A stretch of DNA of 64,000 nucleotides from the NCBI GenBank assembly GCA_934101575.1, contig CAKORJ010000001.1, positions 474,519 to 538,518 of the forward strand. The letters run 5' to 3'. Position numbers and translations under genes: made by a program. This DNA is from an uncultured Bacilli bacterium (GTDB taxonomy: Bacteria > Bacillota_I > Bacilli_A > RF39 > UBA660). Within the stretch, counting starts at the first letter, position 1; the number at the start of each line of letters is the position of its first letter. Of this stretch, positions 56,874 through 63,956 are shown piece after piece. Below the pieces are notes generated by a model. The model did no database searches, was not told where the DNA came from, and was given only the letters and a program-made list of their open reading frames with translations.

Positions 56874-56917
56874 AAAAAGATATAAGAAGTTTTAATGATT
56901 TCTTATATCTTTTTTTA
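56874..56917. terminator. Bidirectional rho-independent terminator (copy 1 of a duplicated hairpin)
   Basis: Perfect 12-bp stem AAGATATAAGAA (56877..56888) / TTCTTATATCTT (56900..56911) with A-run and T-run on either side. Serves the convergent SEDS gene and the glycine-rich protein gene. Confidence 0.65.
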
Positions 56918-59449
56918 TTCTATATTAAACTTTTGTTTATCATAATTGTAATTATGAGTTATTTCTTCTTCTGTTAGTGCTTTTCCATATAATTTCATTT
57001 GATTTATTTTTACATTTGAATAACTTGATGTTTGATATCTTCCTATTGTTAAGGGATTATTCGAATGAGAAAACGCGCTTGATGTGTTTGTTCTTCTATT
57101 TTTTAATACACCATTTATGTATATACTTTCTACGTTATCTTTATAAGTTGCTACTACATTATAAGTCTTTTTTAACTGTATTGTTCCGCCGGATAGATAT
57201 GGAAAATCTGAAGTTGATTGTCTTGTTCCGAATACTACTGTATTATCAGCATTTAATTCTATTGTGTAACCGAACCATTTAACAAATAGTACACTTCTTG
57301 AATTTTTTACTATAGATTGTTTTGAAAATGTTAAGTCTATTGTGAATTCTGTTGGGGCAAGTGTTTGAGAATATGGTATTGTTGCATAATCATCTACCCC
57401 ATCTAATAATAGATAGTTTTTATACCAACTTGATCCCGTTACTGTAGCATTTCCACTTTTACCACTTAAATCTTTCCATGTTGATGTTGAGGATAAATGA
57501 TTTTCTCCTGAATTTGAGAATCCATCTAACCAAAGGTTTAGATTATCCTGAACATATCCATTTATGTTGTTATCGTATGCTGTTATTCTTCTTCCATTTG
57601 ATGTTTGTACTGTGTCTTCTTCTGTTATTGCTGTAAAGTTTTTATTGTCACTTGATACATATGTTTTTGTGTTATGATATACTCTACTATCTCCAAAATA
57701 ATTCCATACTGCTACTTCATCTAAGTCATATGTCTCTTCTAAATCTACTGTTATGCATTGATTAGTGGATGAACTTGATGGCATTGAGTAGTTTCCGTAT
57801 GTTATATCTCCGTCTGTTATTTGTGAATATGCTCTGGTTGTATCATTATATTGAGAAGTTGTTCCTGTTACGGTCTTTCCTTTTGCTATGTTTACTCCAT
57901 CTTTTATTGCCTGTAATTCTATCCAATGATTATCATTATTACTACTATTATAGCCACTACAGTCTTTTATATATCTCACATTATTTAATTTAGTATTTAC
58001 TTTTTTGGGTTTACGTCCTATGTAAATGATTTTTGCATAACCATCTTTTTTAGTTTGATCTTCTTTTATTTTTCCGTTTAGGAAATATTTATTACTATAA
58101 TGCATTGTTGCGTTTGTATGAGTTATTGTTGTGGAATTTTTTACTGAATTCACTCCGGCATAGCCACTTATATATGAGGATCCTCCACAGGAATAGGTTT
58201 CTGAAGTCCCTCCGCCATAGTAGCCTCCACCTCCGCCTGGACCGTATTTTGAGCTTACTATTGCTCCTACCCCAAATCCAGAATCTGTTCCGCTTGTTCC
58301 TGTTCCACCAGCTGTTTGTGAACCGCCTGTACATGTATAACTTCTATCACTTCTTGTATAATAGCCTTGACTTCCGTATAGATATCCGCCTGCTCCACCG
58401 TTATAACTGTATCCAGAACTTGCTGTTCCCATATAGTTACTTGATCCTGCTCCGCCTCCGGCTACCATTATTCTTGAAATCAATGATTTTGTATCATTCC
58501 ATGTTCCACCTACTAATCTAACATCTGTTGCTCCTCCGCCTGAACCATAGTATGTGTTTCCTCCAGTATACTGAAGACTTTTTCCACCACCATTATAGCC
58601 ACCGTTTTCTCCACAACATGTTTTTGAGGAACTACAAACGCACCTTTTTCCAGCACCACCTACATAAATATATAATTTTTCTCCTTCTTTTAGATTTATA
58701 TAGCCTGATGTTATTGATCCTTTTCCACCTTCGTATAATTCATTATCTTCTTGGTAAGATGCTCCTCCTTGAGCCCCTCCTAATTCTACATAATAATATC
58801 CATCTCTTAAAACTGTATACTCTTGAGCATTTCCAGTATAGGTAAATGTTTTAGGCTCTCCTTCTCTATCCATACTTTCTGGTCTTTGTTCTGCTTCTAT
58901 TTTTAGTTTTAAGAAGGCTTTATAATCCTCAAGTTTTGATATCTCTTCTTCTTTAGACTTATCAAGCCATATTCTTAATTTATAGTTTATTATTTCACTT
59001 GCATATATTACATCACTGTCAATTATATTTTTTATTTTTTCCAAGGACATTGGTCCATATTCTTCACCATTTATTTCAAGTCCTACTTTTATGTATTTTG
59101 TATCAAGTACTTTTCCTGTATAGGTACTTGGTACTTCATTTATTAATTTTAAATCATATTTAGCTGGGGATGATCCAATATTTTTTAGATTGAAATCATA
59201 TGTTTCCTCTTGTAACAAGCCTTCTTCATCACCCATAATAGATATTTTTTTATTGATTGTTTCGTAGTTTTCGGTTAGTTTTAATTTTACACTTCCTGTT
59301 TTTATTACTTGTTCATTACTATCGCTATTAACTTCCTTTAAAATAGCATAACTAGTACCACAAAAAAGAGATACTATTCCAAAAAGAGCAATAAAAAGAC
59401 TTATTATATATTTTTTGTTCTTAATGACCCCCCCCCCCCGAGAAAACAT
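56915..59449 (-). CDS. Secreted glycine-rich-domain / discoidin / LamG-like protein, paralogue 1; poly-G tract in codons 4-7 (phase-variation candidate)
   Basis: 844 aa from the ATG at 59449. Signal-like IISLFIALFGIVSLFCGTSYAILKE. An N-terminal ~170-aa beta-rich domain (VIKTGSVKLKL..AFLKLKIEAEQ) is TasA/camelysin-like in pattern. The Gly-rich domain includes FTYTGNAQEYTVLRDGYYYVELGGAQGG, LYIYVGGAG, GGGATDVRL, and SRIMVAGGGAG. The F5/8-type-C-like domain includes NVRYIKDC..HWIELQAIKDG..QCITVDLEETYDLDEVAVWNYF. The LamG-like C-terminus includes LNLWLDG..LLLDGVDDYATIP..YGKALTEEEITHNY. The SD (AAGGAG) actually serves a GTG at 59462, which is out of frame with 12 G. Confidence 0.85.
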   Translation of the reverse strand: MFSRGGGVIKNKKYIISLFIALFGIVSLFCGTSYAILKEVNSDSNEQVIKTGSVKLKLTENYETINKKISIMGDEEGLLQEETYDFNLKNIGSSPAKYDLKLINEVPSTYTGKVLDTKYIKVGLEINGEEYGPMSLEKIKNIIDSDVIYASEIINYKLRIWLDKSKEEEISKLEDYKAFLKLKIEAEQRPESMDREGEPKTFTYTGNAQEYTVLRDGYYYVELGGAQGGASYQEDNELYEGGKGSITSGYINLKEGEKLYIYVGGAGKRCVCSSSKTCCGENGGYNGGGKSLQYTGGNTYYGSGGGATDVRLVGGTWNDTKSLISRIMVAGGGAGSSNYMGTASSGYSYNGGAGGYLYGSQGYYTRSDRSYTCTGGSQTAGGTGTSGTDSGFGVGAIVSSKYGPGGGGGYYGGGTSETYSCGGSSYISGYAGVNSVKNSTTITHTNATMHYSNKYFLNGKIKEDQTKKDGYAKIIYIGRKPKKVNTKLNNVRYIKDCSGYNSSNNDNHWIELQAIKDGVNIAKGKTVTGTTSQYNDTTRAYSQITDGDITYGNYSMPSSSSTNQCITVDLEETYDLDEVAVWNYFGDSRVYHNTKTYVSSDNKNFTAITEEDTVQTSNGRRITAYDNNINGYVQDNLNLWLDGFSNSGENHLSSTSTWKDLSGKSGNATVTGSSWYKNYLLLDGVDDYATIPYSQTLAPTEFTIDLTFSKQSIVKNSRSVLFVKWFGYTIELNADNTVVFGTRQSTSDFPYLSGGTIQLKKTYNVVATYKDNVESIYINGVLKNRRTNTSSAFSHSNNPLTIGRYQTSSYSNVKINQMKLYGKALTEEEITHNYNYDKQKFNIE
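59428..59439 (-). repeat. Homopolymeric G(12) tract (C12 on plus strand) in the 5' coding end of paralogue 1
   Basis: Counted directly: plus-strand C at 59428..59439. Confidence 0.97.
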
Positions 59450-59567
59450 TTGTTCGTTTCACTTTGATCACTCCTTAGTATTATTTATACATTTATTTTA
59501 TAACAAATTTGTTATTTATTCAAGGAATAATTCACCTTTATTTTTCTAGATATGTTAATAATTTTTT

Positions 59568-59854
59568 TTAAATAGTTTTGTCTTCGACTTTGTTTATAAC
59601 AAAACAGCTTTTGCCTAAATCTTTAAAGGATGCTCCTGAGTGATATAATATTTTTTTATCTATTATTATAAATATATCATATAGATTATCTTTTTTATTA
59701 TTGTTAGTTTATTATACTGAGTTTGATATTTTCTTATTAGTTCTTCGTTTGTATTTTTTTTGTGTAAAGTGTTATTTGGTTTTTTTGTTTTTGTTAGGAT
59801 ATCTAATAGTTTTTTCTCTGCATAGTTATCTATTATGATTATTTCTTGTTTTGA
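59568..59854 (-). pseudogene. Decayed 3' fragment resembling the C-terminal region of ORF6N-domain (KilA-N-related) proteins
   Basis: My minus-strand translation: SKQEIIIIDNYAEKKLLDILTKTKK..NSV**TNNNKKDNLYDIFIIIDKKILYHSGASFKDLGKSCFVINKVEDKTI*. It has two in-frame TAA stops, no start and no N-terminal part. The IIDNY.. and DRFLIID..VYHIGASLKDLGKK.FAF blocks are remembered from ORF6N-family C-termini (not searched). Confidence 0.35.
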
Positions 59855-59954
59855 TTATATTATTCGTTTGTTATCTCCTTTTTTGTTTGTAACTATACTA
59901 TATACTAATTGATTTTTATTGTAAAACTGGGAATTTTGTGTTTTGTATTAAAAA

Positions 59955-59989
59955 AAGATATAAGAATTTTTAATATTTTCTTATATCTT
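59955..59989 (-). terminator. Rho-independent terminator downstream of paralogue 2 (copy 2 of the duplicated hairpin)
   Basis: Same perfect 12-bp stem AAGATATAAGAA / TTCTTATATCTT as at 56877..56911, with an 11-nt loop differing at a few positions and flanking A- and T-runs. Confidence 0.6.
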
Positions 59990-60046
59990 TTTTTGTTTTT
60001 GATGTGTTTATTTGTTTTGAAATGTTATAAAGTAATAAATTTGTTT

Positions 60047-62217
60047 TTATTCTAAATTAAATCTTTGTTTATCGTAGTTGTAGTTGTGTGTTATTTCTTC
60101 TTTTGTTAGTTCACCACTAAAGATTTGGAATAGTTTTATATTACCTTTAAAGTATGTTCCACTTGGCCTTTTTCCTATATATGATTTTGATTCTGTCCAA
60201 CTCCAATATTCTGTTGAAGATAGTTTTGGTATTTCTTTGTTATTTACATATATTGTTTTATCAGTTAAACTTCTAAATATTACATCTACTTTGTAATATT
60301 TATCTAAAGTTATTGTTCCTGCGTCATACATATTTGTTGCGCTTACTAATGATGTGATAAATTTGTTATTTTGATATAGTCCTATTGCGGCATTATTTAA
60401 GTTATGTCCAAATATTATTTGACTGTCTGTACTATTAGTTTTATATATGAATGAATATGTCATTGGAAATGTATATTCTTTGTTTGTAAATGCTACATAG
60501 TCGTTGGTTCCATCGAAGGATAGACTATCATTTATCCAAGTTGCTCCGGATACTGTTGCTGTATAACCAGAAGAATTTGTAGATAGATTTTTCCAAGTTG
60601 TGGTTGTATTATTTCTTGTTGTTCCTGTATTTGCTAGTCCATCTAACCACATTGTCATTTTATTTCTTGCTGAATAACCATTTATGTTATCTATATAGGC
60701 ATTTACTCTTATTCCATTTGATGTTTGTATGACATTTTCATCAACTATTTCTGTGAAATTTGTATTATCACTTGATACGGAAGTTATTGTATTGTGATAT
60801 ACTCTTGTATCTCCAAAGTAGTTCCATACTGCTACTTCATCTAAATCATAGGTGTTTTCTAAATCAACTGTTATGCATTGATTACTATTGTCTTCGGATG
60901 TAGTTGTTGCAACATAATTTGAATTATCAATGTCCCCAGTTGTTAGAATTAGAAAATTACTAGTATCTGTATGTTGTGGGGTAAATGTTCCTGTTACTGT
61001 TTTTCCTTTGGCTATGTTTACTCCGTCTTTTATAGCCTCTATTTCTATCCAATGCTTACCTGGATTAGCACTATTGCTTGTACTACAATCTTTTATATAT
61101 CTAACGTTATTAAGTTTTGTGTTTTTTCTTTGAGGTTTGTTATGAGCATAAGTTATTTTGGCATATCCGTTTCCAGAGTTTTGTCCTTCTATCATTTGTC
61201 CACCTACAAAATATTTACTGCTGTAGTGGATTGTTTGATTTGTATGAGTGATTGTTGTTGATTCTTTTACCGAATTTACTCCGGCATAACCTGATATATA
61301 TGATGAGCCTCCGGCTCCTCCACCATTTCTTCCACTTGCTCCAGAGCCACCATAGTATCCACCACCTCCAGCACCAGAGCCATGAGAATAATCAGAATCG
61401 TATCCACCGTTTCCTCCTTTTGCTAGCTGTCCTTTTGTTCCTAAAACAACATATTGCGATTGATAACTATCGGCCTCTCGTTTCCCTGAGCCTATTGGAC
61501 CACTTGTTTTTTGTTGGCCGCCATGACCACCACCTAAAAAGTTTTCTGATAGATCTCCTCCGTCGGTTCCATATAAGGTCCCTCCGTCTCCTCCGGTTAC
61601 ATAATCATTAAATATTGCTCCGCCTCCGCCTCCTCCTGCTACCATTATTCTTGATATTAGCGAAGACATATCATCCCAAGAACCGCTTGTTAATCTTACA
61701 TCTGTTGCACCACCACCTGTTCCTGCTTGATGATTAGCAGAACCTCCACCATTAAATCCTCCTGATGTGTATTCTACATTTGATGAGGCTGTTGTTCCTT
61801 TTCCTCCAACATAAAAATAAAGTTTTTCTCCTTTTTTTAGTTTTATGTAACCACTTGTTTTTGCTCCTAATCCAGCATATGCTTTTGAAGCTCCTCCTGA
61901 TGCTCCTTCTAATTCTATATAGTAATAACCATCTTTTGGAATTGTATATTCTTGTGGTTTTCCAGTATAATTAAATGTTTTTTCATATTCAAATAGGGGT
62001 TCTATTTCTATTGTTTTTGTTCCTGTTATTTCATCTGAAAATAATGCATAAGAATTAGTTATTTTATATGATATAAATCCTACACTAAAAAGAAATATTA
62101 TTATAAATAAAGATAAAACTACCGTATTTAATTCTCTTATATCTTTATTTAATAGATTATAAAAATACCCCCCCCCCCGAACGAATGTTCACTGTCTTGA
62201 TTTTGTTCTTTCTTCAT
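60047..62217 (-). CDS. Secreted glycine-rich-domain / discoidin / LamG-like protein, paralogue 2; frameshifted at a poly-G(11) tract in this sequence (phase OFF or pseudogene)
   Basis: The ATG at 62217 (AAGGAGG 10 nt upstream) encodes MKKEQNQDSEHSF, followed by 11 G. The frame that is open from 62167 to the stop at 60047 encodes YFYNLLNKDIRELNTVVLSLFIIIFLFSVGFISYKITNSYALFSDEITGTKTIEIEPLFEYEKTFNYTGKPQEYTIPKDGYYYIELEGASGG.. and continues into the 540-aa track ORF (MSSLISRIMVAGGGGGG..). That frame is +1 relative to the ATG. Confidence 0.8.
62168..62178 (-). repeat. Homopolymeric G(11) tract (C11 on plus strand) in the 5' coding end of paralogue 2
   Basis: Counted directly: plus-strand C at 62168..62178. 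Confidence 0.97.
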
Positions 62218-62292
62218 ACTTTTACGTCCTCCTTAGTATTTTATATATTAATAATACATTAAAAATACTACTTTTTCAAGCAGTATTATTTT

Positions 62293-63481: not shown

Positions 63482-63494
63482 ATATTCTCTTCAT

Positions 63495-63570
63495 GGTGGC
63501 TCCAGTTGGAATCGAACCAACGACACCAGGATTTTCAGTCCTGTGCTCTACCGACTGAGCTATGAAGCCA
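63495..63570 (-). tRNA. tRNA-Phe (anticodon GAA)
   Basis: Hand-folded: acceptor GGCTTCA/TGGAGCC, anticodon stem CAGGA/TCCTG with loop CTGAAAA, T-arm GTTGG-TTCGATT-CCAAC, encoded CCA. Confidence 0.9.
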
Positions 63571-63579
63571 AAAATAATT

Positions 63580-63655
63580 GGCGGTTCCGACGGGACTTGA
63601 ACCCGCGATCTCCTGCGTGACAGGCAGGCGTGATAACCACTACACCACGGAACCA
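63580..63655 (-). tRNA. tRNA-Asp (anticodon GUC)
   Basis: GGTTCCGTGGTGTAGTGGTTATCACGCCTGCCTGTCACGCAGGAGATCGCGGGTTCAAGTCCCGTCGGAACCGCCA. Anticodon loop is CTGTCAC. Confidence 0.92.
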
Positions 63656-63656
63656 T

Positions 63657-63734
<78 letters not shown>

Positions 63735-63750
63735 TATAAAAATTTTTCAT

Positions 63751-63843
63751 GGCGGAGGAAAAGGGATTCGAACCCCTGCGCCGCTCGCACGACCTCCCGG
63801 TTTTCAAGACCGGTCCCTTCAACCAGACTTGGGTATTCCTCCG
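63751..63843 (-). tRNA. tRNA-Ser (anticodon UGA)
   Basis: Acceptor GGAGGAA/TTCCTCC, anticodon stem CCGGT/ACCGG with loop CTTGAAA, long variable arm, encoded CCA. Confidence 0.9.
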
Positions 63844-63867
63844 TATAAATAACTAATAAAAATAAAT

Positions 63868-63956
63868 GGTGCCTAAGGCCGGACTTGAACCGGCACGAGG
63901 TTTGATCCTCGCAGGATTTTAAGTCCTGTGCGTCTACCAATTTCGCCACTCAGGCA
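63868..63956 (-). tRNA. tRNA-Leu (anticodon UAA)
   Basis: Acceptor GCCTGAG/CTTAGGC, anticodon stem CAGGA/TCCTG with loop CTTAAAA, long variable arm, encoded CCA. Confidence 0.9.

What the first reader, a model, noticed from the sequence alone, without database searches (positions are those of the whole stretch)
59428..59462. Second poly-G(12) tract in the paralogue: two alternative start codons in different frames flank the switch
The minus strand reads AAGGAG-N8-GTG AAA CGA ACA AAT GTT TTC TC(G)12 TCATTAAG.

The GTG at 59462 has the good SD and spacing. With 12 G, however, its frame reads VKRTNVFSGGGGH and then stops at TAA. An internal ATG (59449), 21 nt from the SD and so poorly placed for initiation, is in frame with the 844-aa ORF at 12 G.

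The GTG would read through with 11 or 14 G. The tract length therefore decides which initiation codon, strong or weak, feeds the long ORF. This could give graded rather than binary expression.

Both paralogues are out of frame with their SD-linked starts in this sequence. That state is expected for a contingency locus captured in the OFF state. It is also what homopolymer miscalls would produce.
Basis: partly seen in the sequence, partly recalled or inferred. Interest (0 to 1): 0.82.

Follow-up and report, generated by a model that had tools for sequence, protein, structure and literature searches.

The report
Poly-G on/off switch, surface protein
A run of 12 G at the start of a secreted lectin-like protein gene in a low-GC, spore-forming gut bacterium changes length between otherwise identical strains and shifts the gene in and out of frame: a classic slippage switch, found here in a gene family and a group of bacteria for which I found no earlier report.

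Summary
On the minus strand, AAGGAG-N8-GTG is followed by G12 (59439-59428). At G12 the GTG frame stops at TAA 59423-59421. The ATG at 59449 is in frame with the 844-aa ORF.

The tract is hypermutable. In 12 syntenic metagenome assemblies it reads G10, G11, G12 or G13, and the sister tract at 62178-62168 reads G10 to G13. In an 8.4-kb alignment the only indels are these two tracts. Four loci with zero substitutions carry four different tract genotypes. All three frame states occur: 848 aa from the GTG, 844 aa from the ATG, and 773 aa from neither.

Some strains carry non-slippery alleles (AGC GGT GGA, GCG GGT GGG). These are in frame with the SD-linked start, which marks it as the real start.

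The "graded expression through two starts" idea is not supported beyond chance. The ATG has no SD, and a codon shuffle of this leader creates an alternative-frame start 17% of the time. The idea already has a precedent in H. influenzae licA and lic2A.

Verdict: a real homopolymer contingency locus and a new member of a known kind. At G12 the gene is probably OFF or weakly expressed. Poly-G tracts recur across this glycine-rich-domain family, in 5' coding regions and apparently in promoter spacers.

The parts
59495..59523 (-). Promoter-like site TTGAAT-17-TAAAAT upstream of par1
   Evidence: Consensus scan, 9 of 12 matches. The number of such sites in the region is not above the shuffled expectation, so this is only a candidate.
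59466..59476 (-). Shine-Dalgarno AAGGAG (59476-59471), extended match AAGGAGTGATC
   Evidence: Read directly from the sequence. The same AAGGAGTGAT-N-start arrangement occurs at the third paralogue locus, where the start is ATG.
59460..59462 (-). SD-linked GTG start, 8 nt after the SD. Out of frame at G12; in frame at G11 or G14.
   Evidence: L005 has G11 and an 848-aa product MKRTNVFSGGGVIKN. Non-slippery alleles use TTG or ATG at this position, in frame.
59447..59449 (-). Internal ATG in a different frame, 21 nt from the SD. In frame with the long ORF at G12.
   Evidence: It has no SD of its own. Gene callers used it in 9+3 contigs, giving the 844-aa proteins P0121 and P0125.
59428..59439 (-). 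Poly-G tract, 12 nt: the hypermutable switch
   Evidence: Its length is G10, G11, G12 or G13 in 12 syntenic assemblies, and it is one of only two indel sites in 8.4 kb.
59421..59423 (-). TAA that ends the GTG frame at G12, closing the 13-codon ORF VKRTNVFSGGGGH
59345..59428 (-). Signal peptide or signal anchor, VIKNKKYIISLFIALFGIVSLFCGTSYA, immediately downstream of the tract
   Evidence: Read from the translation. G31, S33, Y34 and A35 are nearly invariant in the family alignment. Because it lies after the tract, either start would give an export-competent protein (inference).
56915..59449 (-). par1 ORF, 844 aa from the ATG or 848 aa from the GTG at G11. Domains: N-terminal beta domain, ALK/LTK-type glycine-rich domain, galactose-binding-like domain, LamG lectin-like domain.
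   Evidence: Pfam PF12810 E 6.5e-37, PF13385 E 2.8e-18, PF22633 E 3.2e-5, the last below its gathering score. PDB profile search: ALK GRD E 2e-5, 4qvs E 2e-7. AF2 model plus Foldseek.
62251..62279 (-). Promoter-like site TTGAAA-17-TATTAT upstream of par2
   Evidence: 10 of 12 matches. Nearly the same sequence precedes the third paralogue locus and L092.
62215..62234 (-). par2 SD AAGGAGG (62234-62228) and its ATG start (62217-62215). Out of frame at G11; in frame at G9 or G12.
   Evidence: G12 alleles give a 723-aa product.
62190..62192 (-). par2 internal GTG in another frame, in frame at G10 or G13. No SD.
   Evidence: Gene calls of 714 and 715 aa in the G10 and G13 assemblies.
62168..62178 (-). 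Sister poly-G tract, 11 nt, in par2
   Evidence: It reads G10 to G13 across assemblies.
60047..62188 (-). par2 open frame of 713 codons. At G11 it has no in-frame start before 61669.
   Evidence: Pfam PF12810 E 5.5e-41.

Best explanation
The G12 run is a hypermutable simple-sequence repeat in the 5' coding region of a secreted or surface-anchored lectin-like protein gene. Slipped-strand mispairing during replication adds or removes G residues. Each 1-nt change moves the long ORF relative to the SD-linked GTG at 59462.

The states are:
- G11 or G14: ON. Full pre-protein MKRTNVFSGGG-VIKNKK...
- G10 or G13: null.
- G12, the state in this window: the GTG frame terminates after 13 codons. Only an SD-less internal ATG remains in frame, so the gene is OFF or at most weakly expressed.

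The neighbouring paralogue (G11 here, ON at G12) and at least one more paralogue elsewhere in the genome carry the same device. A clonal population can therefore display different combinations of these surface proteins.

Shown here: the tract, the frame arithmetic, length polymorphism confined to the tracts in otherwise identical DNA, all three frame states in nature, and non-slippery in-frame alleles.

Inferred: replication slippage as the cause, reversibility within a lineage, surface exposure, and selection by host immunity, phage or glycan niche.
For: 1. The tract and frames are as described.

2. These are the only two G/C runs of 8 or more in 64 kb at 27.7% GC. Both sit at the same place in paralogous genes.

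3. Twelve syntenic assemblies from independent gut metagenomes give par1 G10 x6, G11 x1, G12 x3, G13 x1 and G7TG4 x1. The 11 with par2 resolved give G10 x3, G11 x2, G12 x5 and G13 x1.

4. In an 8.4-kb alignment of 10 loci the only indel columns are the two tracts, while twelve A/T runs of 7-8 nt are invariant. The window, L001, L005 and L007 have 0 substitutions between them but tract genotypes (11,12), (13,10), (11,11) and (10,12). L178 and L179 have 0 substitutions but (10,12) against (12,10).

5. Members of the 90%-identity cluster are called as 848 aa (MKRTNVFSGGGV...), 844 aa (MFSRGGGV...) and 773 aa (MGDEEG...) on 4+1, 9+3 and 10+3+2 contigs.

6. Alleles with the run replaced by TCT AGC GGT GGA or TTT GCG GGT GGG are in frame with the SD-linked TTG or ATG.

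7. A third paralogue locus has AAGGAG-N8-ATG...TCT-G12, which is ON. Protein variants in its cluster correspond to G9, G10 and the null frame, and a JGI contig has TC-G10.

8. The tract position is conserved in distant relatives at 43-48% identity. In total, 29 of 120 family representatives have an N-terminal GGG(G) before the signal anchor, behind at least 7 different leader peptides.

9. The protein has a signal anchor plus ALK-type glycine-rich and lectin-like domains.
Against: - No read-level or single-colony data are available, so within-lineage reversibility and switching rate are not shown.
- All sequences are short-read consensus assemblies, in which long G runs are error-prone. One assembly shows G7TG4, which may be an error.
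- The fully ON state (G11) is the rarest par1 state seen at DNA level: 1 of 12 loci. That is unexpected if expression were usually favoured.
- Nothing here shows that the protein is made or reaches the surface.
- The organism was not identified.
Confidence: 0.85

Rival explanations
1. Three-level rheostat. Both the SD-linked GTG and the internal ATG are used. G11 would then give high expression, G12 low expression and G10 none, as reported for H. influenzae licA and lic2A.
For: - The ATG is open through the tract into the 844-aa ORF.
- The signal anchor lies after the tract, so the shorter product would still be exported (inference).
- par2 has an analogous internal GTG, and UMGS1449-type leaders have an internal ATG or a TTG overlapping the tract boundary.
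- In 11 genomes with both tracts resolved, none has both paralogues in the null frame. Chance would give this about 27% of the time (my arithmetic).
- A ribosome terminating at TAA 59423, 26 nt downstream, could in principle re-initiate at the ATG (established knowledge of reinitiation; inference here).
Against: - There is no SD within 4-14 nt of the ATG. Most window genes have GGAGG or GGTGAT at 4-10 nt.
- A codon shuffle gives an alternative-frame start in 17% of shuffles of this leader. Across leaders, 4 of 7 were observed against 2.3 expected.
- The ATG arises from an Asn-Val pair (AAT GTT) and is kept in non-slippery alleles where it is useless.
- All non-slippery alleles use the SD-linked frame.
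Confidence: 0.25
2. Homopolymer miscall. The true tract in this genome is G11 (gene simply ON), and the length differences between assemblies are sequencing or assembly noise.
For: - Long G runs are error-prone.
- L006 shows G7TG4.
- All the data are consensus contigs with 5-19x coverage, as given in the contig names.
Against: - Four lengths occur at each of two tracts, in independent combinations.
- The same 844-aa call appears on 9+3 contigs and the 773-aa call on 15 contigs.
- The A/T runs are invariant.
- Tracts are conserved at the same gene position across species, and related genes carry what look like promoter-spacer tracts.
- Noise would not create a 10-13 nt G run in 28% GC DNA in the first place.
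Confidence: 0.08
3. RNA-level slippage. RNA polymerase stuttering or ribosomal frameshifting on the G run makes every DNA state partly ON, so the DNA length only tunes the output.
For: It rests on general knowledge that long homopolymers cause transcriptional slippage.
Against: - Slippage is best documented for A/T runs (my recollection, not tested here).
- The population carries discrete DNA length alleles and non-slippery alleles, which suggests that DNA state matters.
Confidence: 0.07
4. Decaying pseudogenes that happen to be frameshifted at a fragile site.
For: Both paralogues are out of frame with their SD-linked starts in this window.
Against: - The ORFs are intact for 836 and 706 codons downstream of the tracts.
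- There are no other indels in 8.4 kb across 10 loci.
- ON alleles exist in identical backgrounds.
Confidence: 0.02

Closest known systems
Intragenic poly-G contingency loci of Campylobacter jejuni, Helicobacter and Neisseria (e.g. meningococcal hmbR/hpuA, PMC3786947; the Campylobacter phasome, PMC6321876)
   Same: A run of about 8-13 G in the 5' part of a surface-related gene. Changes of 1 nt toggle the reading frame. Several loci per genome switch independently.
   Different: The host here is a low-GC, spore-forming gut Firmicute with CotZ and SpoVE/FtsW neighbours. The gene family is an ALK-type glycine-rich-domain lectin-like protein. Switching has not been measured here.
Haemophilus influenzae licA and lic2A: several initiation codons in different frames upstream of a CAAT repeat (PMC2212159; Dixon et al. 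2007 J Bacteriol 189:511, cited in PMC6479036)
   Same: Start codons in two of the three frames lie upstream of the repeat, so two repeat-length classes can give product and one cannot.
   Different: The repeat there is a tetranucleotide, and use of the alternative codons was tested experimentally. Here the alternative ATG has no SD, its use is untested, and its presence is not beyond chance.
Listeria monocytogenes inlA 5' poly(A) tract (PMC2831843)
   Same: A Firmicute surface protein gene with a homopolymer in the first codons. Its frameshifts give a very short truncated product and revert at high frequency.
   Different: That tract is poly(A) of about 7-8 nt in a single gene. Here the tracts are long poly-G runs in AT-rich DNA, recurring across a multigene family.
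Promoter-spacer homopolymer switches (Mycoplasma hyorhinis vlp poly-A and N. meningitidis opc/porA from my own knowledge; fetA, PMC13293289)
   Same: Relatives of this gene in other MAGs carry G8-G13 between -35-like and -10-like hexamers.
   Different: This applies to related loci, not to the window. In the window the tract is inside the coding region.

Membership tests
Homopolymeric-tract (SSR) translational phase-variable contingency locus | A long mononucleotide repeat inside the 5' coding region, far longer than composition predicts | tested here: met
   G12 at 59439-59428. It is one of only two G/C runs of 8 or more in 64 kb at 27.7% GC.
Homopolymeric-tract (SSR) translational phase-variable contingency locus | Repeat length polymorphic among closely related strains while flanking DNA is invariant | tested here: met
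   G10 to G13 in 12 assemblies. The only indels in 8.4 kb are the tracts, and loci with 0 substitutions differ at both tracts.
Homopolymeric-tract (SSR) translational phase-variable contingency locus | Length changes place the start codon in or out of frame with an otherwise intact ORF | tested here: met
   Frame arithmetic. Gene calls of 848, 844 and 773 aa. ORF intact for 836 codons.
Homopolymeric-tract (SSR) translational phase-variable contingency locus | High-frequency, reversible switching within a clonal lineage | not testable with these tools
   No reads or cultures are available. The only support is indirect: four tract genotypes on one zero-substitution background.
Homopolymeric-tract (SSR) translational phase-variable contingency locus | Expression changes with tract length | not testable with these tools
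   Needs a reporter or an immunoblot.
Multi-start phase-variable genes (licA / lic2A type, more than two expression levels) | Start codons in at least two frames upstream of the repeat, each open into the repeat | tested here: met
   GTG 59462 and ATG 59449.
Multi-start phase-variable genes (licA / lic2A type, more than two expression levels) | The alternative start has its own initiation signals, or is conserved beyond chance | tested here: not met
   No SD. Codon shuffle P=0.17 for this leader; 4 of 7 leaders against 2.3 expected.
Multi-start phase-variable genes (licA / lic2A type, more than two expression levels) | Both starts are used in vivo with different efficiency | not testable with these tools
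   Needs reporter fusions or initiation-site profiling.
ALK/LTK glycine-rich domain proteins (Pfam PF12810) | Match to the family profile above the curated threshold | tested here: met
   par1 128.3 bits and par2 141.6 bits, against a cut-off of 24.5. A PDB profile search hits the ALK GRD at E 2e-5.
ALK/LTK glycine-rich domain proteins (Pfam PF12810) | Fold resembles the solved ALK/LTK TG domain | tested here: inconclusive
   Foldseek probability 1.0 and E 2.7e-8 to the LTK TG domain 7nx1, but TM only 0.47 on the target and rmsd 11 A. The model has mean pLDDT 67.6.

The most novel reading that the evidence does not exclude
The leader-plus-poly-G module is a three-state dial (strong, weak, off) rather than a binary switch. 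Alternative-frame start codons (ATG in par1, GTG in par2, ATG or TTG in distant relatives) would be maintained so that two of three tract-length classes give product. Combined over several paralogues, this would give uncultured gut Firmicutes a graded, combinatorial repertoire of lectin-like surface proteins.
Probability: 0.2. Interest if true: 0.6.

Novelty: new member of a known kind. Interest (0 to 1): 0.5.

Why it matters
In gut commensals and in C. difficile, phase variation has mostly been described as DNA inversion (papers listed; review read). My literature searches found no report of poly-G slippage switches in clostridia-like gut spore-formers.

Here a family of secreted proteins with ALK-type glycine-rich and lectin-like domains is repeatedly tied to poly-G tracts. 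The family is widespread in uncultured low-GC gut bacteria. The tracts lie in 5' coding regions, between promoter-like hexamers, and in a short upstream ORF. This marks the proteins as likely targets of fluctuating selection from immunity, phage or glycan niches.

There are two practical consequences:
- Gene callers split these genes into 848, 844, 773 and 540-aa "variants", which inflates protein catalogues.
- Metagenome pipelines that treat homopolymer indels as errors would erase real biology.

Tried and rejected
- NCBIfam scan of par1, par2 and the neighbouring 101-aa ORF: no family. I therefore dropped my guess that the signal peptide is of a SipW/TasA type.
- First JGI metagenome scan, with both tract flanks specified: 0 hits.
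- Second scan, with the 17-nt leader: 83 hits, of which only one (L162) was a true relative.
- The GTDB genome scan did not return the window's own species. The best hits were 51-60% identical, so the organism stays unidentified beyond [quoted passage not shown]. Rfam and tRNA scans found only tRNAs and no rRNA.
- Terminator scan around the locus: none found. Promoter-like hits were not above the shuffled expectation.
- Enrichment test for alternative-frame starts: not significant. That test missed start codons overlapping the tract boundary, such as TTG in CTT-Gn leaders. Those leaders are paralogous, so I did not recount them as independent.
- Paired par1/par2 states: there is no both-ON and no both-null genome, but the numbers are too small and the strains too related to conclude anything.
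- Pseudogene reading: rejected, because the ORFs are intact and ON alleles occur in identical backgrounds.
- Dixon et al. 2007 (PMC1797379) could not be read, so it is cited only through PMC6479036.
Full report

Yes. The minus strand reads AAGGAG (59476-59471), tgatcaaa, GTG (59462-59460), aaacgaacaa, ATG (59449-59447), ttttctc, G12 (59439-59428), tcattaag.

- At G12 the GTG frame gives VKRTNVFSGGGGH and ends at TAA 59423-59421.
- The ATG frame runs 844 codons, to 56915.
- The GTG is in frame at G8, G11 or G14, and the ATG at G9, G12 or G15.

The window is 27.7% GC. Its only G or C runs of 8 or more are this tract and C11 at 62168-62178. By my arithmetic, base composition predicts about 5e-5 runs of 11 or more in 64 kb.

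The second tract sits at the equivalent place in the neighbouring paralogue. There the order is AAGGAGG 62234-62228, ATG 62217-62215, and G11 62178-62168. The ATG frame stops at 62151-62149. The 713-codon open frame 62188-60047 has no in-frame start before 61669.

**2. What are the genes?**

Both products match Pfam PF12810, the ALK/LTK glycine-rich domain, with E 6.5e-37 and 5.5e-41. par1 also has a LamG-type lectin domain (PF13385, E 2.8e-18). Both have a weaker galactose-binding-like match that falls below the gathering score.

- A family profile finds the ALK glycine-rich domain in the PDB at E 2e-5, and an S-layer-associated LamG domain (4qvs) at E 2e-7.
- An AlphaFold model is mostly beta, with mean pLDDT 67.6.
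- Foldseek matches this model to ALK/LTK TG domains and to lectin-like jelly rolls of trans-sialidases and clostridial neurotoxin binding domains. The fit to the TG domain is loose: TM 0.47 on the target.

Directly after the tract comes KNKK followed by an 18-residue hydrophobic stretch ending GTSYA. This is a signal peptide or signal anchor, and it is nearly invariant in the family. NCBIfam has no model for these proteins.

The neighbouring genes are a PrsW protease, an FtsW/SpoVE protein, two CotZ spore-coat proteins, a PTS EIIB protein and a histidine kinase. The locus is therefore chromosomal, in a low-GC spore-former. I could not name the species. The family scan of GTDB representative genomes returned only relatives at 60% identity or less. 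These were labelled uncultured Bacilli, "Tenericutes" UMGS1449, Lachnospiraceae, Clostridium sp. and similar.

**3. Does the tract vary?**

This was the decisive test, and the answer is yes.

*Protein level.* The 90%-identity cluster that contains the window's protein has three kinds of member:

| Length | N-terminus | Start in frame | Contigs |
|---|---|---|---|
| 848 aa | MKRTNVFSGGGVIKN | GTG | 4+1 |
| 844 aa | MFSRGGGVIKN | ATG | 9+3 |
| 773 aa | MGDEEG | neither | 10+3+2 |

*DNA level.* I fetched syntenic contigs from independent human gut metagenomes. Written as (par2, par1), the tract lengths are:

| Locus | (par2, par1) |
|---|---|
| window | (11, 12) |
| L001 | (13, 10) |
| L002, L003, L004, L179 | (12, 10) |
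| L005 | (11, 11) |
| L006 | (12, G7TG4) |
| L007, L178 | (10, 12) |
| L176 | (10, 13) |
| L177 | (not available, 10) |

*Alignment control.* In an 8.4-kb alignment of ten of these loci, the only indel columns are the two tracts. Twelve A/T runs of 7-8 nt never vary.

- The window, L001, L005 and L007 have zero substitutions among them but carry four different tract genotypes.
- L178 and L179 have zero substitutions but carry (10,12) and (12,10) (a first version is).

The tracts therefore change much faster than anything else in the region, and the two tracts change independently of each other. Neither is met.

**4. Which start is the real one?**

Three lines point to the SD-linked codon.

- At a third paralogue locus elsewhere in the genome, the same AAGGAGTGAT-N-start arrangement carries an ATG where par1 has GTG. 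That locus sits in a SpoU / Methyltransf_4 context. Its tract is TCT-G12 and is in frame, giving 853 aa.
- Some strains have replaced the run with non-slippery codons. L090 reads TTG AAG CGG ACA AAT GTT TTC TCT AGC GGT GGA ATC. L091 reads ATG AAA CGA ATA AAT GTT TTC TTT GCG GGT GGG GTC. Both are in frame with the SD-linked start.
- Most genes in the window have GGAGG or GGTGAT 4-10 nt before the start. The ATG at 59449 lies 21 nt from AAGGAG and has no SD of its own.

**5. Is the two-start arrangement more than chance?**

I could not show that it is. Shuffling the codons of the par1 leader creates an alternative-frame start that is open into the tract in 17% of trials. Over seven leaders from the family, four have such a start, against 2.3 expected.

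Several other leaders do have alternative starts:
- par2 has an internal GTG (62192-62190) that is in frame at G10 or G13. This explains the 714 and 715-aa gene calls.
- L028 has an internal ATG.
- UMGS1449-type leaders end in CTT-Gn, so a TTG overlaps the tract boundary. My shuffle test did not count these.

None of these alternative starts has an SD. The leaders are also partly paralogous, so they are not independent. The ATG in par1 is simply AAT GTT (Asn-Val), and it is kept in the non-slippery alleles where it cannot be used.

In favour of the graded idea:
- The signal anchor lies after the tract, so a product started at the ATG would still be export-competent.
- A ribosome terminating at TAA 59423 could in principle re-initiate 26 nt upstream (inference).
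- Of the 11 genomes with both tracts resolved, none has both paralogues in the null frame. Chance alone would give that result about 27% of the time (my arithmetic).

I rate the graded reading at about 0.25.

**6. Could it be sequencing error?**

For this one assembly, yes. G12 against G11 is a single base in a long G run, and L006's G7TG4 looks like an error or a genuine interruption. Error does not explain the rest:
- four lengths at each of two tracts, in independent combinations;
- identical calls repeated on many contigs;
- stable A/T runs;
- the existence of 10-13 nt G runs in 28% GC DNA at all;
- their conservation at the same gene position across species.

**7. The wider family**

Among the 120 best cluster representatives, 29 have GGG or GGGG just before the signal anchor. 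At least seven unrelated leader peptides precede it.

P0007 joins the par2-type leader (MKKEQNQDSKHSF) to a par1-type body exactly at the glycine run. This suggests recombination at or near the tract.

I then looked at 566 kb around family members in GTDB representative genomes.
- There are 17 G/C runs of 8 or more, and all 17 read as poly-G on the strand on which the family match was placed.
- Nearly all lie within or just upstream of a family ORF. The exceptions are the first L087 tract and the L054 tract at the end of its locus, where the downstream ORF was not checked.
- Five are 5'-coding tracts in UMGS1449, homologous in position to par2 (...CTT-G9/10-TAT CTT TAT AA...).
- Others lie between -35-like and -10-like hexamers. 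Examples are L033 TTGACAacatt-G10-TATAAT, L034 TTGATTttcaca-G13-TATAAT, and L087 (twice) TTGACT-G8-taataatt-TATAAT.
- In one MAG (L054, L064, L077) the tract lies in a short upstream ORF. In L064 and L077 a hairpin plus T-run follows it, and the sequence ends too soon to see this in L054.

These last two placements were read by eye from the sequences. I did not test them further.

**8. Comparison with known systems**

The mechanism is the classic homopolymeric-tract contingency locus, as in meningococcal hmbR/hpuA (PMC3786947) and the Campylobacter phasome (PMC6321876). A Firmicute precedent is the 5' poly(A) tract of L. monocytogenes inlA (PMC2831843).

The two-start idea is also known. H. 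influenzae licA has three candidate initiation codons in two of the three frames upstream of its CAAT repeat (PMC2212159). lic2A was studied for exactly this "differential expression" (Dixon et al. 2007, cited in PMC6479036; the paper itself was not available).

In my searches, phase variation in C. difficile and in gut Bacteroides appears as DNA inversion (papers listed; review read). I found no paper linking PF12810 proteins or clostridia-like gut bacteria to poly-G switching. These searches cover only the held library.

**9. Verdict**

This is a real feature and a new member of a known kind. The window captures par1 with its SD-linked start out of frame, so it is OFF or weakly ON through an SD-less ATG. 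par2 is fully OFF.

- Confidence in the contingency-locus explanation: 0.85.
- Confidence in the graded two-start refinement: about 0.25.
- Interest: 0.5. The mechanism and the multi-start twist are textbook. What is new and useful is the gene family, the host group, and the repeated use of poly-G in several placements across uncultured gut bacteria.

Noticed in passing
window 62168-62178 (- strand), with ATG 62217-62215 and GTG 62192-62190: The sister tract (G11) in par2 has its own alternative-frame start. An internal GTG is in frame at G10 or G13, while the SD-linked ATG needs G12. At G11 neither is in frame, so par2 is fully OFF in this window.
   Followed up: yes
L090 4001-4040; L091 4001-4040: Some strains carry par1 alleles in which the G run is replaced by non-slippery codons (TCT AGC GGT GGA, or TTT GCG GGT GGG). 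These are in frame with the SD-linked TTG or ATG, so they are apparently fixed-ON versions. Their upstream neighbours differ: an ISL3-type transposase fragment in L090, and RecX in L091.
   Followed up: partly
L008 4025-4036, L009 4025-4036, L010 1154-1165, L162: A third paralogue at a different chromosomal place (SpoU / Methyltransf_4 context) has the same SD, leader and internal ATG, with TCT-G12 in frame. Cluster members correspond to G9, G10 and the null frame. L009 has a different upstream context (PGK-TIM-Spo0A) for the same protein.
   Followed up: partly
L033 198-207; L034 87-99; L087 389-396 and 2587-2594; L081 3566-3573; L068 3658-3665: In other MAGs, genes of the same family have the poly-G run between -35-like and -10-like hexamers, for example TTGACAacatt-G10-TATAAT and TTGATTttcaca-G13-TATAAT. 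That would make it a promoter-spacer switch rather than a frameshift switch. This was read by eye and not tested.
   Followed up: partly
L064 3358-3367; L077 3901-3909; L054 5133-5142: In one Firmicutes MAG the G9-10 run lies inside a short upstream ORF (M[RK]K[IM]DS[IL]MLTWGGG...). In L064 and L077 this is about 80-130 nt before the family gene and is followed by a hairpin (aacaag...cttgtt) and a T-run. In L054 the tract is at the locus end and its downstream gene was not seen. It may be an attenuation-type use of the tract.
   Followed up: no
P0007 (protein); window par1 and par2 leaders: P0007 joins the par2-type leader MKKEQNQDSKHSF to a par1-type signal anchor and body exactly at the glycine run. 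Leaders, promoters and bodies seem to be shuffled between paralogues. The par2 promoter region is nearly identical to that of the third locus and of L092.
   Followed up: partly
L092 1364-3898: One strain has a single family gene between PrsW and FtsW instead of two. Its tract context is different (TCC-G11-C), and it is again in the frame served only by the internal ATG.
   Followed up: partly
L012, L014, L016, L018, L024, L025, L028, L039, L043, L047 (URXR01 contigs): The MAG UMGS1449 ("uncultured Tenericutes") carries at least ten copies of this gene family on different contigs. Five were seen with 5' poly-G tracts whose leaders end CTT-Gn, so a TTG start codon overlaps the tract boundary.
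   Followed up: partly
window and L001-L007, L176-L179: Across 11 genomes with both tracts resolved, the two paralogues are never both fully ON and never both in the null frame. When par2 is ON (G12), par1 is usually G10. The numbers are small and the strains are related, so this may mean nothing.
   Followed up: partly
L006 4011-4022: One assembly shows the par1 tract as G7-T-G4. The total length is 12, the same frame as the window. It is either an assembly error or a real interruption that would stabilise the tract.
   Followed up: no
window 59477-60046: About 570 nt of AT-rich sequence lies between the par2 stop and the par1 SD, with no ORF of 80 aa or more and no terminator-like site. Its function was not examined.
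   Followed up: no
window 63494-63955 (- strand): A cluster of five tRNA genes (Leu-taa, Ser-tga, Met-cat, Asp-gtc, Phe-gaa) lies upstream of the cold-shock / PrsW / par2 region.
   Followed up: no
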